Of a stretch of 64,000 bases of DNA, positions 48,345-61,146 are shown one piece after another. Made by a program: the position numbers and the translations under genes. The notes under the pieces were generated by a model. That model made no database searches. It saw nothing but the letters and a program-made list of their open reading frames with translations, and had not been told where the DNA came from. Location: positions 14,130 through 78,129 of the forward strand of contig DVIA01000043.1 in NCBI GenBank assembly GCA_018711655.1, in the 5' to 3' direction. Position 1 is the first letter of the stretch, and the number at the start of each line of letters is the position of its first letter. The DNA comes from Candidatus Pullichristensenella avicola. Lineage in GTDB: Bacteria; Bacillota; Clostridia; Christensenellales; Aristaeellaceae.

Positions 48345-48943
48345 ACGCTCACCATTTTCACACAGGATTTTCAGCCTTCTGCCGGCTGCTTGCCGCGGGC
48401 ATTTTCTCCGCGCTGAATGCGGCGCCAAAGGCAGATCTCCCCGCTTCCCGGCGGCGGATACCGTCGAAGCCACCGTTCGCAGGGCCGCAAAGCGCGCTCA
48501 TGGGCCGCTGCGCCGCGCGCCGAGAGGCCCGCGCAGGGGTTCGTCCATCTTTCGCCGCTCATGGCAAAGCGCTTCGGCCGGGGCGCGCTTGGCAGCGGGC
48601 GCCGGAACGTCCGCGAATCGCGGCGCGGCGCATTTTTTCCATCGCCGCAGGCTGGGCGACGTTGACCGCGCCCGGTCGCGATATTGCCGCAAAGCCACGC
48701 GCCCGTTTCGCCGCCCGACAGGGCGACGCCCCTGCGCGCAGGCCCCAATGCCGGCGCCTTGCCGTGGCCCGATCCACAGGAAAGCCCCTGCGAAAACCCG
48801 GGCTGCGAGCCAGGACACCGGCCCCCACGCGGCCCCCACGCGTTCCTTCCAACTGCGCCGCAACTGAAAAGATTGCCTGAAAACCGGAGTTTTCAGACAA
48901 TCTGAAACGTGCCTTTCGGCATGTCCTGATCCCGCGTTCGCCG

Positions 48944-50007: not shown

Positions 50008-50704
50008 TCGCGGCGCGCAAAAAGCGCGCGCAGAGCGAAATTTAACATGCCCGCGCGCGCAAATCCTCCAGCGTCGAGGCAACACCGCGGCCGGGAAAGG
50101 AAACGCGAGGGGCCTGCGGCCGATTTTTGCCCCTGCCCTCCCGCATTTGCGCCTGCCATCTTCTCCCAGGTCCTGCGCGTTTCACCGTTTTCCTGCGCGC
50201 CCCGCGCCGATCGGAGGATCCATGCGCCGCGCCGGGGCGTCCTCCTGTTCGCAGGCAGGAGAATGGAACGCAGCCGCGGACAGTATGAGGTTCCGCTTTC
50301 GCACCCGCCGCCATGCTGAATGCGAAAACACGGCGCGCAAAGCGCCTCTGCTTTCCCCGAGCGCGCGCCTCCGCCTTGCGACATTTGGCATCGCTCCTGT
50401 CCGGGCGGGCCCGAGGTTTGCCTTCGCGCCCGACGCCCCATTGCATGCGCATGCGCAGACGCGGGTCGCATGCCGTCCACGATCAAACTTCTCCCAGCCA
50501 GCCCGCGCCCACGCAGATGCGCAGCGCGTGCGGCGCATTTTGCCGGCCTTGACCGCCGCGCCTGCGCACGCCGCGTGGACGCAAAGCGCGTCGCAACGCA
50601 ACGGAGCCCGCCGGCAAGGAAGCAAGCCGCCCGTGCCCGCGTCTCCTGGACGCGCCCGCAAAAGCGTTCCATCTGGCGCATTGCTTCCAGCGCGGACGGC
50701 TTTG

Positions 50705-56435: not shown

Positions 56436-57497
56436 ATGATCGTATGCAAATTTGGCGGCACCTCGCTCTGCGACGCTTCGCGCGTGCGGCAGGCCATGGC
56501 GATCCTGCGCCGCGACGGCGCGCGCCGTTTTGTGGTGGTATCCGCGCCAGGGCGGCGCTTTGACGGCGATGAAAAAATTACCGATCTGCTCCTGCGCGCC
56601 GGGAATGGCGACGACGAAGCGCTGGCAGCGGCGCTGGCGCGCTTTCGCGAAATGGCGGCGGCGCTGGGCGTGGACATGGAGGGCGAGTTGCGCCGCGTCC
56701 GGGAGGAAATCCCCGGCCGCGGCGCGGAATTTGCCGCAAGCCGGGGCGAATATCTGTGCGGCCATCTCCTCGCCCGCTGTCTGCGCTGGACGTTTGTAGA
56801 CGCGGCGGAGGCCGTTTGCCTGCGCCAGAACGGCACGGCGGATCTGGAGGAGACTTACCGACGTCTTTCGCGGCTGCTTCGACCGCTGAAAAACGCCGTC
56901 GTTCCAGGGTTCTACGGCACGACGCGGCGCGGCGAAGTGCGCACCTTTCCACGCGGCGGCTCGGACATTACCGGCGCGCTGGTCGCGGGCGCGATGGGCG
57001 CGCGCCTGTACGAAAACTGGACGGATGTGGACGGGTTGATGTCCGCCGATCCGCGCGTGGTGCAAAATACCATATGCGTGCCGGAGGTCAGCTATCGGCA
57101 AATGCGCCTTTTGAGCGCCATGGGAGCGCAGGTGCTCCACCCCGACAGTCTGCTGCCGGTCATGCGCGCCGATATTCCCACGGCGCTGAAAAACAGTTTT
57201 CACCCCGAGCGGCCTGGCACGCGCATCTCCGGCGGAGCGCGGGCAAAAGTACCTTGCCTTGCCGGCCGGGCGCTGGAAAGCGGCGCGGGACTGCTGGCGA
57301 TCCTCTCGCCGGAGGCGATGGATCTGCCCAATTGCGCCGTCTCCGCGCTGCGCGCCGCAGGCATTCGGCCGCGCTGGCTCGGCGCATGGAGCGACCGTTT
57401 GCTCATGCGCGTGCGCGCCAACTGTCTGCCGGACGCGCTGCGCGCCTTGCATCACGCGCTTATCGAGGGCGGCGCAAAACCACGCCCGCAGGCTTAA
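56436..57497 (+). CDS. aspartate kinase (short form, 353 aa)
   Basis: MIVCKFGGTSL, VVVSAPG and RGGSDITGALVAGAMGA are amino-acid-kinase motifs of aspartokinases. Only about 100 aa follow the kinase domain. Confidence 0.75.
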   Translation: MIVCKFGGTSLCDASRVRQAMAILRRDGARRFVVVSAPGRRFDGDEKITDLLLRAGNGDDEALAAALARFREMAAALGVDMEGELRRVREEIPGRGAEFAASRGEYLCGHLLARCLRWTFVDAAEAVCLRQNGTADLEETYRRLSRLLRPLKNAVVPGFYGTTRRGEVRTFPRGGSDITGALVAGAMGARLYENWTDVDGLMSADPRVVQNTICVPEVSYRQMRLLSAMGAQVLHPDSLLPVMRADIPTALKNSFHPERPGTRISGGARAKVPCLAGRALESGAGLLAILSPEAMDLPNCAVSALRAAGIRPRWLGAWSDRLLMRVRANCLPDALRALHHALIEGGAKPRPQA

Positions 57498-57810
57498 CCG
57501 GCGATTCGACGGCGCGCCTGAGCCACGGCCGCGCGCGTGTTTCCCAGGAGTCGCCAAAGGCATACATTTCATCGCCTGGAGCGATGCGTTCTCCTTACCG
57601 GACGAGTTTTGATGCTTCCGTCCCGCCGGTGCGTTTTCCGCCTTCCCGTTCCAGGCGGCCCTGACGGAAAGGCGCGCAATGCTTCGGGCGCGCCCGCTCC
57701 TCCGTTCGAATCCTTGCAGCGCGGCCCAAATTCAAGGCGCGGCATGGCGCGACCCGCCCCCCATCGCTCCCCTGACCGCAAAGCGCGGGAAATCCCGGCA
57801 GGATGCGTCC

Positions 57811-58366
57811 ACGGCGCGCCGTCTCTGAAAACGGAGCCGCGCCGGCGCACGAATGCGGGAGGCGGCGTCTCCAGCCGTCCCGGGGAAGCGCGGGGCGCGG
57901 CGCTTTGCGCGCATGCCGCGCCGTTCGCCATGCGCGGTTCGCATGCCGGCGAAGTCCTCGAAGCAGCATGCGCGGCGTTTCTGAAAACAGAGCCGCGCCG
58001 GCGCGCGAATGCGGGAGGCGACGTCTCCAGCCGTCCCGGGGAAGCGCGGGGCGCGGCGCTTTGCGCGCATGCCGCGCCGTTCGCCATGTGCGGTTCGCAT
58101 GCCGGCGAAGTCCTCGAAGCAGCACGCGCGCCGTCTCTGAAAACGGAGCCGCGCCGGCGCGCGAATGCGGGAGGCGGCGTCTCCAGCCGCTCCGGGAAAG
58201 CGCGGGGCGCGGCGCTTTGCGCGCATGCCGCGCCGTTCGCCATGTGCGGTTCGCATGCTGGCGAAGTCCTTAGCGCGGCACGCGCGGCGTTTCTGAAAAC
58301 GGAGCCGCGCCGGCGCGCGAATGCGGGAGGCGGCGTCTCCAGCCGCTCCGGGAAAGCGCGGGGCGC
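57811..58366. repeat. tandem array, 156-nt unit x about 3.6 copies, GC-rich, non-coding by my reading
   Basis: The marker CTGAAAAC recurs at 57825, 57981, 58137 and 58293 (exact 156-nt spacing). The units are near-identical. Each contains GGCGCGGC-13nt-GCCGCGCC, the palindrome GCGCCGGCGC and GGAG-7nt-CTCC. Confidence 0.9.
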
Positions 58367-58451
58367 TTCCCCCGGGACAAATTCCTTCCTCGGCAGACGG
58401 CAGCGCACGGGGTTTGCGCCAAACGCCGCCGACCAGCGCGCCGGCCCGCGC

Positions 58452-58487
58452 AAACAAAAGCGCGGAGGGGCTTGCAGCCTCCTCCGC
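58452..58487 (-). terminator. rho-independent terminator of valS
   Basis: Reverse strand reads GCGGAGGAGG-ctgcaag-CCCCTCCGC followed by TTTTGTTTG. Confidence 0.75.
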
Positions 58488-58503
58488 GCCGGCGCGCCGC
58501 GTC

Positions 58504-61146
58504 TTAGCGCAGCGCCTCCATTTCGGCAATGCGGGCCTCGAGCTTGACAAGCAGGCCCTTGTTGGTCTCCAGCTTCTGCTTTTCCTGTTCGATGAGGTGG
58601 GCGGGAGCTTTGGAGACGAATCCCTGATTGTTCAACTTGCCCTGCGCGCGGGCGATCTCGCCTTCGACGTTCTTTCTGTCCTTTTGCAGGCGGGCGATCT
58701 CCTTTTCCACATCCACCAGTTCGCCCAGCGGCATGAACAATTCGCACGGCCCGGTGACGGCGCTGGCCGACTTTTCCGGGTTGGGCGCGTCGGCGGGGAG
58801 AATCTCCACAGCGCTGGCGAAGGCCAGGCGGCGGAAATAGCCCTCCGCGGCGGCGAGCGCGTCCTTCCATCCCGCGTGCGGCTTGAGCAGCAGCGTGGCG
58901 CGGCGGCCGGGGGCGACGTTCATCTCGGCGCGCAGGTTGCGCACGGTGCGGATGACCTCCATCACGCCCTCCATGCGGGCGGTCTCCTCCGGGAAATCGA
59001 ACTCGGGGCGCGCCTCGGGCCAGCGGGCAGTGATGAGCATGCCCTCCACGCCCGGCAGGTAGCTGTAAACCTCCTCGGTGACGAAGGGGATGTAGGGGTG
59101 CAAAAGCTTGAGCGTGCCCAGCAGCACCTCGTAGAGCACTTCCTGCGTGGCCTTTTTGCGCTTTGCGTCGCCGCTGTTGAGGCCCTGCTTGGCAAGCTCG
59201 ATGTACCAATCGCAGAAATTGCTCCACACAAAGTCGTAGAGCTTGGTGGCGGCCAGGCCCAGATCGAACTTTTCAAGGTCGTCGGTGATCTCGCGCGCGG
59301 TCTCCTGGAACTTGGTGAGTATCCACTTGTCGCACAGTTCCAATTTGTCTGCGTTGGGCACGCCCTCGGGCGTGAAGCCCTCGAGGTTCATCAAGACGAA
59401 GCGCGAGGCGTTCCAGATCTTGTTGACGAAATTGCGGAAGGACTCGATCTTCTCCTCCGACATGCGCACGTCCGCGCCCGGGGAGACGCCCATCTCCAGC
59501 GAGAAGCGCAGCGCGTCCGCGCCATACTTGTCGATGACGGCGATGGGGTCGATGCCGTTGCCGAGAGACTTACTCATCTTTCTGCCCTGCGCGTCGCGCA
59601 CGAGGCCGTGCATCAGCGCCACATGGAAGGGGCACTTGCCCATTTGCTCGATGCCGGAAAACACCATGCGCGCGAGCCAGAAAAAGATGATGTCGTAGCC
59701 GCAGGAGAGCACGCTGTTGGGGTAGAAGTACTGAAGATCCTCCGTCTCCTCCGGCCAGCCGAGGGTCGAGAACGGCCACAGCGCCGAGGAGAACCAGGTG
59801 TCGAGCACATCCTCGTCCTGATGGACGCGGCCGCCGCACTTGGGGCAGGCGGTGATGTCCTCGCGGGAGACAGTAATCTCGCCGCACTGCTCGCAGTAGA
59901 AGGCGGGGATGCGGTGGCCCCACCAGAGCTGGCGGGAGATGCACCAATCGCGGATGTTCTCCATCCAGTTAAGATACGTCTTTTCAAAGCGCTCGGGAAC
60001 AAAGACCAGTTCCCTGTTCTTCGCCACCTCGATGGCGGGCTCGGCCAAGGGCTTCATCTTCACAAACCACTGGGTGGAGACGAGGGGCTCGACGTTATCG
60101 TGGCAGCGGTAGCAGGTGCCCACATTGTGCTTGAGCGGCTCGACCTTGACCAGCAGGCCCAGCGTTTTCAGTTCCTCCACCACGGCCTCGCGGCAGGCTT
60201 CGCGCGTCATGCCCGCGAACTTGCCGGCGTTTTCGTTCATGGTGCCATCGTCGTTGAGGACGCGGATGATGGGCAAATCGTGGCGCTGGGCGACCTCGAA
60301 GTCGTTGGGGTCGTGCGCCGGGGTCATCTTCACCGCGCCGGTGCCGAACTCGAGGTCGGCGTAATCGTCGGCGACGATGGGAATTTCGCGGTTCATAATC
60401 GGCAGGGTGACGGTCTTGCCCACCATGTCCCTGTAGCGCTCGTCGGCGGGGTTGACGCATACGCCGGTATCGCCCAGCATCGTCTCCGGGCGGGTGGTGG
60501 CGACGACGATGTCGCCGTGCGCGCCGGGATAGCGGATGTGCCAGAGGTGGGAATCCTGCTCCACATACTCCACTTCCGCGTCGGAAAGGGCGGTCTTGCA
60601 GGTGGGGCACCAGTTGATGATGCGCGCGCCGCGGTAGATGAGGCCCTTTTCGTAGAGGCGCACGAATGTCTCGCGCACGGCGCGGCTGAGGCCCTCGTCC
60701 ATGGTGAAGCGCTCGCGCGACCAGTCGCAGGAAACGCCCAGTTTGCGCAGCTGGCGGACGATGCGGCCGCCGTATTCCTTCTTCCACGCCCAGGCGCGCT
60801 CGAGGAACTTTTCGCGGCCGATCATCTCCTTGGAGACGCCCTCGGCCTTGAGGGCCTCGACCACCTTGATCTCGGTGGCGATGGAGGCGTGGTCCGTGCC
60901 CGGCACCCAGAGGGTCGGGTCGCCCTTCATGCGGTGGTAGCGGATGAGCACATCCTGCGGCATCTCGTCCAGCGCGTGGCCCACATGAAGCTGGCCGGTG
61001 ATGTTCGGCGGCGGCATGACGATGGTGAAGGGCTGCTTCTCCGGGTCGATGACCGGCTTGAAGGCCCCGGATGACTCCCACTTTTCGTAGATGCGCGTTT
61101 CCACATCCTGCGGCGAAAATACCTTGTCCATCTTAAATTCCTGCAT
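58504..61146 (-). CDS. valS: valine--tRNA ligase
   Basis: 880 aa. PPPNITGQLHVGHAL (HIGH region), RKMSKSLGN (KMSKS) and a C-terminal coiled-coil. GGAGGGAAGACC-ATG. Confidence 0.97.
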   Translation of the reverse strand: MQEFKMDKVFSPQDVETRIYEKWESSGAFKPVIDPEKQPFTIVMPPPNITGQLHVGHALDEMPQDVLIRYHRMKGDPTLWVPGTDHASIATEIKVVEALKAEGVSKEMIGREKFLERAWAWKKEYGGRIVRQLRKLGVSCDWSRERFTMDEGLSRAVRETFVRLYEKGLIYRGARIINWCPTCKTALSDAEVEYVEQDSHLWHIRYPGAHGDIVVATTRPETMLGDTGVCVNPADERYRDMVGKTVTLPIMNREIPIVADDYADLEFGTGAVKMTPAHDPNDFEVAQRHDLPIIRVLNDDGTMNENAGKFAGMTREACREAVVEELKTLGLLVKVEPLKHNVGTCYRCHDNVEPLVSTQWFVKMKPLAEPAIEVAKNRELVFVPERFEKTYLNWMENIRDWCISRQLWWGHRIPAFYCEQCGEITVSREDITACPKCGGRVHQDEDVLDTWFSSALWPFSTLGWPEETEDLQYFYPNSVLSCGYDIIFFWLARMVFSGIEQMGKCPFHVALMHGLVRDAQGRKMSKSLGNGIDPIAVIDKYGADALRFSLEMGVSPGADVRMSEEKIESFRNFVNKIWNASRFVLMNLEGFTPEGVPNADKLELCDKWILTKFQETAREITDDLEKFDLGLAATKLYDFVWSNFCDWYIELAKQGLNSGDAKRKKATQEVLYEVLLGTLKLLHPYIPFVTEEVYSYLPGVEGMLITARWPEARPEFDFPEETARMEGVMEVIRTVRNLRAEMNVAPGRRATLLLKPHAGWKDALAAAEGYFRRLAFASAVEILPADAPNPEKSASAVTGPCELFMPLGELVDVEKEIARLQKDRKNVEGEIARAQGKLNNQGFVSKAPAHLIEQEKQKLETNKGLLVKLEARIAEMEALR

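What the first reader, a model, noticed from the sequence alone, without database searches (positions are those of the whole stretch)
57811..58366. 156-nt x ~3.6 near-identical tandem array in a 1-kb convergent intergenic region (aspartate kinase / valS)
The unit boundaries are exact: CTGAAAAC occurs at 57825, 57981, 58137 and 58293. Copies differ at only a handful of positions, for example GTCTC versus GTTTC at the unit start and CCGTCCCGGGGA versus CCGCTCCGGGAA. The period is 52 codons and several reading frames on both strands stay open across it. However, every repeat peptide is Arg/Ala/Gly-rich without start or RBS context, so I read it as non-coding.

Each unit carries strong local helices (GGCGCGGC-13-GCCGCGCC, the palindrome GCGCCGGCGC, and GGAG-7-CTCC). 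The array lies outside both flanking terminators. It is not CRISPR-like because there are no unique spacers. It could be a structured tandem ncRNA, a protein-binding array, a recombination or termination insulator, or a VNTR.
Basis: seen in the sequence. Interest (0 to 1): 0.6.

Follow-up and report, generated by a model that had tools for sequence, protein, structure and literature searches.

The report
Strain-variable non-coding 156-bp minisatellite
The 156-base repeat is a real, non-coding, species-specific tandem duplication (a bacterial minisatellite) in the gap between two converging housekeeping genes of an uncultured chicken-gut bacterium; it is ordinary in kind, but this genome carries dozens of similar arrays.

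Summary
Tandem Repeats Finder gives 57814-58366, period 156, 3.5 copies, 94% identity and no indels. The array lies in a 1006-bp, 72% GC spacer between an aspartate-kinase-like gene (+) and valS (-).

It is not coding: codon-position GC is flat, codon scores are negative in all six frames, variants do not favour third positions, and there is no Pfam hit or six-frame homolog. It shows no sign of being a structured RNA: no Rfam hit, folding no better than shuffles, no compensatory pairs and no promoter.

The unit occurs nowhere else in this genome, in 60 relatives, or in the phage, plasmid and public contig collections searched. Two congeners have an ordinary 179-189-bp, 50-55% GC spacer at the same site. 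Independent assemblies of the same species have identical flanks but 1.5, 3.5 or about 4.5 copies, or reshuffled variants. A divergent strain shows concerted evolution.

Best reading: a young intergenic minisatellite (VNTR) made and remodelled by slippage or unequal recombination, with no function of its own. It is one of about 62 non-coding whole-unit arrays in this 2.4-Mb genome. These sit in gene 3'-end spacers (21 convergent, 19 co-directional, 1 divergent).

The parts
57814..58366 (.). Tandem array, 156-bp unit x 3.54 copies, GC about 0.73
   Evidence: TRF; register and variants; nhmmer profile finds four hits here and none elsewhere in the genome
57814..57969 (.). Copy 1 (identical in the five assemblies that read through it: L023, L024, L026, L027 and the window)
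57970..58125 (.). Copy 2
58126..58281 (.). Copy 3 (its 3' end, TTAGCGCGGCAC, differs from copies 1-2; this end is swapped in assemblies L026 and L027)
58282..58366 (.). Copy 4, partial (85 bp). The array ends at the tip of a hairpin-capable stretch (CCGGGAAAGCGC-GGG-GCGCTTCCCCCGG, about 58346-58375)
   Evidence: inverted repeats I8/I9
57498..57813 (.). Left, non-repeated part of the spacer (316 bp, GC about 0.66). It holds no copy of the unit, only faint direct repeats 65-67 and 111 bp apart
58367..58503 (.). Right, non-repeated part of the spacer, which includes the valS terminator
58451..58489 (-). valS intrinsic terminator: GC-rich hairpin followed by UUUUGUUUG
   Evidence: fold of 58425-58510 (-): -60.4 kcal/mol, z -3.26
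56436..57497 (+). Aspartate-kinase-like amino-acid kinase gene (353 aa, no ACT tail; below NCBIfam cut-offs)
   Evidence: Pfam PF00696 E 9e-32; NCBIfam best hit 249.9 bits against a cut-off of 434
58504..61146 (-). valS, valine--tRNA ligase (880 aa)
   Evidence: Pfam; NCBIfam NF004349, 1214 bits, cut-off 704

Best explanation
The array is a young, non-coding intergenic minisatellite (VNTR) specific to this species (Candidatus Pullichristensenella, chicken gut). A 156-bp stretch of an already enlarged, GC-rich spacer between the 3' ends of the kinase gene and valS was duplicated head to tail. Since then, copies have been gained, lost and homogenised, by inference through replication slippage and unequal recombination or gene conversion between copies. 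It probably has no sequence-specific function. It persists because a spacer that holds only the ends of two converging genes tolerates extra DNA, whereas promoter-bearing spacers do not. Its high GC matches what unconstrained DNA would drift towards in a genome whose third codon positions are 82% GC. Shown: the array is real, non-coding, locus-specific, absent from relatives, different between assemblies, and evolving in concert. Inferred: the slippage/recombination mechanism, the neutrality, and the explanation for the GC content.
For: Real and exact. Non-coding: GC1/2/3 is flat at 0.71-0.76 and codon log-likelihood is negative in all six frames, against valS GC3 0.89 and GC2 0.40. Variants fall 7/3/6 on codon positions 1/2/3. 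There is no Pfam hit and no six-frame homolog of either long ORF in 40 relatives. Public gene callers place ORFs on different strands in different assemblies. Not an RNA family or stable fold. No promoter-like site. Locus-specific: only this locus in its own genome; only short GC-rich chance hits in 60 relatives; zero hits in genome and metagenome contig scans and in the phage and plasmid collections. Recent origin: the orthologous convergent spacer is 189 bp (GC 0.50) in G007 and 179 bp (GC 0.55) in G008. Variable: with 100% identical flanks, the spacer is 694 bp (1.5 copies, hybrid copy), 1006 bp (3.5 copies, in three different variant arrangements) or 1161 bp (about 4.5 copies, with an N gap). 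Contigs from five further samples (L028 and four Logan contigs) break inside the array. Concerted evolution: strain L028 differs by 0.28% in 5.4 kb of flank but by about 4% in the array, and both of its copies share strain-specific variants. Genome context: 74 whole-unit arrays, 62 of them non-coding, median GC 0.71. They lie in 21 convergent, 19 co-directional and 1 divergent spacer (Fisher p 1.7e-6), and their units are mostly unrelated to each other. A HiFi long-read congener has the same kind of array in convergent spacers. Closest published parallel: Wolbachia VNTR-141 and VNTR-105 (PMC3287509).
Against: There are no reads, so copy-number differences between short-read assemblies (MEGAHIT k141, SPAdes, a scaffold with an N gap) could partly be collapse or mis-threading of a 156-bp repeat and not biology. 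There is no RNA data, so transcription is unknown; the kinase gene has no convincing terminator and may read into the array. Copies differ by 4-8%, so the array is not brand new, and something could be maintaining it. The strong bias towards 3' spacers would also fit a role or an origin tied to transcription ends. The 3.54 (non-integer) copy number needs at least one extra event beyond simple duplication.
Confidence: 0.75

Rival explanations
1. The array works at the DNA or transcription level as a buffer between the two converging genes. Examples would be a row of back-up terminators or roadblocks for valS or kinase read-through, or a topological or protein-binding insulator.
For: Each unit carries, on the valS-sense strand, a weak terminator-like site (CGCGCCGGCGCG hairpin followed by CTCCGTTTTC): 4 of the 8 terminator-like hits in the region, where shuffles give a mean of 2.5. 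Arrays genome-wide are concentrated in convergent spacers, about 10% of which carry one. The kinase gene lacks a clear terminator.
Against: Units at different loci are unrelated in sequence, so there is no shared motif for a common protein. Congeners manage with a 179-189-bp spacer at this very site. The hairpins are no more stable than composition predicts, and the U-run is only 4 long. valS already has a strong terminator upstream of the array. A 3'-spacer bias is equally expected from selection against insertions in promoter regions.
Confidence: 0.09
2. Each unit, or the whole array, is a structured non-coding RNA (a tandem sRNA gene array or a long structured 3' UTR).
For: The unit is rich in inverted repeats. 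Three variant columns switch between G-U and a Watson-Crick pair on the plus strand. The kinase transcript may extend into the array.
Against: No Rfam match even at E of 10 or less, apart from noise. MFE z-scores run from +1.5 to -2.2. There are 0 compensatory pairs, a covariation term of -0.12, and two predicted pairs broken by variants. No sigma-70-like promoter was found in the region. No homolog exists in any relative, so nothing is conserved.
Confidence: 0.06
3. The array encodes a repeat protein (52-residue repeats), for example the 336-aa plus-strand ORF 57537-58547 or the 272-aa minus-strand ORF 57732-58550.
For: The period is 52 codons; three frames are open. The only indel seen between strains is 3 nt. 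Automatic gene callers annotate ORFs here.
Against: There is no codon-position signal and codon scores are negative. Variants are not at third positions and mostly change the residue. There is no Pfam hit and no six-frame homolog in 40 relatives. The called ORFs flip strand between assemblies, and both long ORFs run into valS on the opposite strand or another frame. Long open frames are expected at 72% GC.
Confidence: 0.02
4. The repeat is an assembly artefact.
For: The genome is a 76-contig short-read bin. 33 of its 152 contig ends lie in tandem arrays. Assemblies disagree on copy number, and several contigs break inside the array.
Against: Copies carry distinct variants, which assemblers do not invent. 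At least three assembly styles and several samples recover two or more copies with the same copy-1 sequence. Assemblers collapse repeats far more readily than they expand them. A HiFi congener shows arrays of the same kind. Only the exact copy number is in doubt.
Confidence: 0.03

Closest known systems
Wolbachia wMel intergenic VNTR-141 and VNTR-105 (PMC3287509)
   Same: Intergenic, long period (141 and 105 bp against 156 bp here), hairpin-bearing units, non-integer copy numbers (0.8 to 6.3 against 1.5 to 4.5), high identity between periods, copy number differing between very close strains, and attribution to slipped-strand mispairing.
   Different: A different phylum and an AT-rich genome. 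The Wolbachia periods are 98-99% identical, against 92-96% here. Their polymorphism was shown by PCR and sequencing, whereas here it rests on short-read assemblies. Wolbachia has a handful of such loci; this genome has dozens.
Mycobacterial MIRU/ETR-type VNTR loci (own knowledge)
   Same: GC-rich genome, units of tens of bp in intergenic regions near gene ends, copy-number variation between strains.
   Different: MIRUs form a dispersed family of related 40-100-bp units, and some are translated as part of operons. Here the unit is unique to one locus, and units at other loci are unrelated. The MIRU membership test fails.
REP/BIME extragenic palindromes of enterobacteria (own knowledge)
   Same: GC-rich, hairpin-capable extragenic DNA found at gene 3' ends and avoiding divergent promoter regions.
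   Different: REPs are palindromes of about 35 bp present in hundreds of related copies, in alternating orientation. This is a 156-bp direct repeat of a sequence found nowhere else.
Convergent-gap minisatellites noted by this scan in other uncultured bacteria (notes e1-1474377, e1-2815377, e1-4050844)
   Same: Real, non-coding, strain-variable tandem arrays between convergent genes, absent from relatives. One human-gut genome likewise holds several unrelated arrays.
   Different: Those are AI notes on other genomes and were not re-tested here. Their periods are shorter (52-84 bp in the notes that give one).

Membership tests
Bacterial intergenic minisatellite / VNTR | Head-to-tail direct copies of one unit of tens to hundreds of bp | tested here: met
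   156 bp x 3.5, 94% identity, no indels
Bacterial intergenic minisatellite / VNTR | Lies in non-coding DNA and is not itself translated | tested here: met
   No coding signal in any frame, variants not synonymous-biased, no Pfam hit or homologs
Bacterial intergenic minisatellite / VNTR | Copy number differs between strains of one species | tested here: inconclusive
   1.5, 3.5 and about 4.5 copies, plus reshuffled variants, in assemblies with identical flanks.
Bacterial intergenic minisatellite / VNTR | Copies evolve in concert (homogenisation within an array) | tested here: met
   The two L028 copies share strain-specific changes; array divergence is about 4% against 0.28% in the flanks
Bacterial intergenic minisatellite / VNTR | Young and lineage-restricted, absent at the orthologous site of relatives | tested here: met
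   G007 and G008 have 189- and 179-bp spacers without it; no homolog in 60 relatives
Interspersed repeat family (MIRU, REP/BIME, BOX, ERIC) | Related units present at many loci in the genome | tested here: not met
   blastn and an nhmmer profile find the unit at this locus only. All-against-all comparison of 149 array units gives mostly singletons.
CRISPR array | Short conserved repeats separated by unique spacers of similar length | tested here: not met
   The whole 156-bp unit is repeated and there are no unique spacers. The Cas1 genes lie on other contigs.
Tandem sRNA gene array / structured ncRNA | Own promoter and terminator per unit or per array | tested here: not met
   0 promoter-like sites in 57300-58700. 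The only terminator-like sites are weak 6-bp hairpins with 4 U on the minus strand.
Tandem sRNA gene array / structured ncRNA | Structure conserved and supported by covariation or excess stability | tested here: not met
   z-scores from +1.5 to -2.2; 0 compensatory pairs; no Rfam match
Tandem sRNA gene array / structured ncRNA | Transcribed as discrete RNA | not testable with these tools
Iteron or centromere-like protein-binding array | Short (about 10-40 bp) phased binding sites, usually next to the gene of the binding protein or an origin | tested here: not met
   The unit is 156 bp with no internal sub-period. The neighbours are a kinase-like gene and valS. Protein binding itself is not testable here.

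The most novel reading that the evidence does not exclude
The array is one visible product of a lineage-specific process that keeps inflating the 3'-end (terminator-side) spacers of Ca. Pullichristensenella avicola and its sister species with unique, GC-rich tandem duplications. There are about 62 non-coding whole-unit arrays, about 10% of convergent spacers carry one, convergent spacers are twice as long as divergent ones, and the same genome holds roughly 20-40 dispersed mini CRISPR-like arrays. If this process is targeted, for instance hairpin-triggered slippage at terminators or off-target spacer integration followed by unit duplication, and is not just tolerated junk, the lineage would be a natural model for how a small bacterial genome gains non-coding DNA against the usual deletion bias.
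Probability: 0.15. Interest if true: 0.55.

Novelty: new member of a known kind. Interest (0 to 1): 0.3.

Why it matters
On its own the array matters little. It is a usable strain-typing marker for an uncultured chicken-gut species, and a warning to annotators, because public gene callers place strand-flipping spurious ORFs of 161-311 aa on it. The wider pattern is more interesting. This 2.4-Mb genome has long, GC-rich 3' spacers and many unrelated minisatellites that break short-read assemblies (33 of 152 contig ends). That is unusual for bacteria, which normally delete non-functional DNA, and it deserves a look with closed long-read genomes.

Tried and rejected
1. A period 'quantum' of about 31 bp (156 = 5 x 31). 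A Rayleigh test on all array periods was significant (R 0.309 against a null 99th percentile of 0.287). The signal came entirely from a 61.8-bp harmonic class of CRISPR-like loci; without them R is 0.20 against a null 95th percentile of 0.32. Rejected.
2. A histone-fold or other 30-bp-step chromatin protein: PF00808 is absent from the genome.
3. Decayed copies of the unit in the array flanks or elsewhere: the nhmmer profile finds none.
4. A dispersed repeat family: rejected.
5. Phage or plasmid origin: no match.
6. Exact-pattern scans of genome contigs and metagenome contigs: 0 hits.
8. More assemblies from the valS side: the look-up returned only records already seen.
9. TRF on the long spacer of the closest relative, G002: no array detected. 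That contig ends at least 633 bp into the spacer, so homology of the expansion could not be judged.
10. The first strand folding failed on the length limit and was replaced by ViennaRNA in Python.

Full report
OBSERVATION. Tandem Repeats Finder reports a single array at 57814-58366 with period 156, 3.5 copies, 94% matches and no indels. Laid out in register, the four copies (the last one 85 bp) differ at a few columns. The variants form a mosaic: copies 1 and 3 share GCGCGCCGTCTC, while copies 1 and 2 share GTCCCGGGGA. The array sits in a 1006-bp spacer with GC 0.72. On one side is a 353-aa amino-acid-kinase gene that resembles aspartate kinase but scores below every NCBIfam cut-off. On the other is valS, which scores above its cut-off. 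The two genes converge.

NOT CODING. I trained a codon log-likelihood on 514 long ORFs of the same genome. It is positive for the kinase gene and valS in their true frames and negative in all six frames of the array. GC at the three codon positions is flat (0.71-0.76), whereas valS has 0.61/0.40/0.89. The 16 variable columns fall 7/3/6 on codon positions 1/2/3 of the longest ORF, and most would change the residue. The four long ORFs tested have no Pfam family. Neither of the two longest (336 aa plus strand, 272 aa minus strand) has a six-frame match in 40 relatives. Public pipelines call ORFs here on different strands in different assemblies of the same DNA, which is what spurious ORFs in 72% GC sequence look like.

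NO EVIDENCE FOR A STRUCTURED RNA. A permissive Rfam scan gives only noise, and the whole window at gathering thresholds yields just RNase P and SRP RNA. Seven distinct unit variants collected from all assemblies give 0 compensatory pairs, a covariation term of -0.12 kcal/mol and two predicted pairs broken by variants. No sigma-70-like promoter is found in 57300-58700. valS has a clear intrinsic terminator at 58451-58489 outside the array; the kinase side has only weak hairpins.

WHERE IT COMES FROM. The unit occurs only at this locus in its own 2.38-Mb, 76-contig genome. It has no homolog in 60 relatives, none in the genome and metagenome contig scans and none in the phage or plasmid collections. 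In congeners G007 and G008 the same two genes converge on a spacer of 189 and 179 bp with GC 0.50-0.55. In G004 the gap between the two genes is 1962 bp and reads like coding sequence. In the closest relative, G002, the spacer is at least 633 bp and runs into a contig end. The enlarged GC-rich spacer and its array are therefore recent and lineage-specific.

VARIATION. Looking up the exact kinase protein found ten further contigs from other samples. Five of them span the spacer, and their 5.4 kb of flank is 100% identical to the window. One has 694 bp (1.5 copies; the second is a hybrid of copy 2's head and copy 4's tail). Three have 1006 bp: one is identical to the window and two have variants arranged differently. 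One scaffold has 1161 bp including a 100-N gap (about 4.5 copies). Five more contigs end inside the array. A more divergent strain (L028) differs at 15 of 5378 flank positions. In 261 bp of array it has about 10 substitutions plus a 3-nt insertion, and both of its copies share the same strain-specific changes, which is concerted evolution. The repeat itself is not an artefact, but short-read collapse or mis-threading could explain part of the copy-number spread.

GENOME CONTEXT. TRF on the whole genome finds 149 loci with period of 40 or more, 1.8% of the DNA, with median GC 0.70. Thirty-three of the 152 contig ends lie in one. Their units are mostly unrelated. The loci fall into two classes.

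- About 48 have periods that are harmonics of 61.8 bp. Inspection shows that many are CRISPR-like, with a repeat of 29-30 nt, unique spacers of 32-33 nt, and a different type I-E-like repeat at each locus. With TRF arrays masked, non-coding gaps still show a sharp 60/120/180/240-bp series of 9-mer matches.
- The other class is 74 whole-unit arrays like this one, 62 of them non-coding, with median GC 0.71 and no preferred period.

Using a crude codon-score gene caller, these whole-unit arrays lie in 21 convergent, 19 co-directional and 1 divergent spacer. The background is 209, 1111 and 228 such spacers (Fisher, convergent against divergent, p = 1.7e-6). Convergent spacers have a median of 436 bp at GC 0.66; divergent spacers have a median of 215 bp at GC 0.53.

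For all TRF loci of period 40 or more, the density is 6.3 per 100 kb here. It is 7.8 in G002, 2.3 in G007, 2.7 in G006 (a hifiasm long-read MAG), 1.7 in G004 and 1.4 in G044, a same-order control of similar GC. Counting only non-coding loci, the figures are about 5.1 here (2.6 for whole-unit arrays only), 1.3 in G006 and 0.45 in G044. G006's arrays include 162 bp x 4.1 and 183 bp x 2.2 in convergent spacers.

MECHANISM. The best-supported reading is a neutral or nearly neutral minisatellite. Its steps are as follows.

- Tandem duplication of a spacer segment (inferred).
- Gain, loss and homogenisation of copies by slippage or unequal recombination. This is inferred from the hybrid copies, the mosaic variants and the concerted evolution.
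- Survival because 3'-end spacers tolerate insertions. This is inferred from the orientation bias.
- GC content that reflects the genome's neutral composition, since GC3 is 0.82; this too is inferred.

The non-integer copy number and the coincidence of the right junction with a hairpin tip suggest that hairpin-associated template switching, or a later deletion, shaped the end.

COMPARISON. The closest published parallel is Wolbachia VNTR-141 and VNTR-105. They are intergenic, have 141- and 105-bp periods, carry hairpins, have fractional copy numbers that vary between very close strains, and are attributed to slipped-strand mispairing (PMC3287509). The array is not a MIRU, REP or BOX-type interspersed element, because the dispersed-family test fails. 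It is not CRISPR and it is not an iteron set. Two general full-text searches returned nothing describing this pattern, and a search on the genus name returned only five papers, none about repeats by title or abstract.

VERDICT. The finding is real and non-coding, and it is a new member of a known kind (bacterial intergenic VNTR). Interest is low to moderate. What is unusual is the number of such arrays and the long GC-rich 3' spacers in this lineage, plus the dispersed mini CRISPR-like arrays noticed in passing.

Noticed in passing
Own genome outside the window, e.g. C54:73917-74133, C10:47494-47866, C3:39982-40367, C59:39889-41245, C75:38-245, C65:342-552: Roughly 20-40 dispersed non-coding mini-arrays of 2-6 units with textbook CRISPR anatomy: a 29-30-nt repeat with a CCCCGCGCGCG(T/A)GGGG-type palindromic core, then unique 32-33-nt spacers, period 61-63. 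The repeat sequence differs from locus to locus. The bona fide type I-E-like array sits next to Cas1 at C19:1-1015, and a second, type II-like array (36-nt repeat, 41 units) is at C43:76576-79313 next to another Cas1. They could be decaying orphan arrays or off-target spacer integration; spacer targets were not examined.
   Followed up: partly
Whole genome G000 (window = C29:14130-78129): Convergent spacers are about twice as long as divergent ones (median 436 against 215 bp) and more GC-rich (0.66 against 0.53). This is the reverse of my expectation for bacteria (own knowledge, not tested here). About 105 gaps of 300 bp or more have GC above 0.68. The other GC-rich ORF-less blocks flagged in this window (48345-48943, 50008-50704) probably belong to the same pattern.
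   Followed up: partly
Contig ends of G000, e.g. C29:1-283, C55:1-461, C76:1-265: 33 of 152 contig ends lie inside a tandem array, so these repeats cause a good share of the assembly's fragmentation and the true arrays are probably longer than assembled.
   Followed up: partly
window 57612-57787: The non-repeated left part of the spacer holds faint direct repeats 65-67 bp apart (57612/57679; 57669/57734) and 111 bp apart (57659/57770). These may be remnants of older duplications.
   Followed up: no
window 56436-57497: The 'aspartate kinase' is only 353 aa, matches aspartate kinase models over the catalytic domain alone, and falls below every NCBIfam cut-off (best 249.9 bits against 434). A paralog with 52% identity lies at C1:10317-11135.
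   Followed up: partly
L023-L026 (public assemblies of this locus): Automatic gene callers annotate 161-311-aa ORFs across the array, on the plus strand in some assemblies and the minus strand in others. These are spurious proteins that will enter protein databases.
   Followed up: no
L039 (G004:C1:335500-341500): In congener G004 the kinase-to-valS gap is 1962 bp and reads like coding sequence on the reverse strand (several apparent ORFs). This would be a gene insertion where this species has a repeat-filled spacer; it was not analysed further.
   Followed up: no
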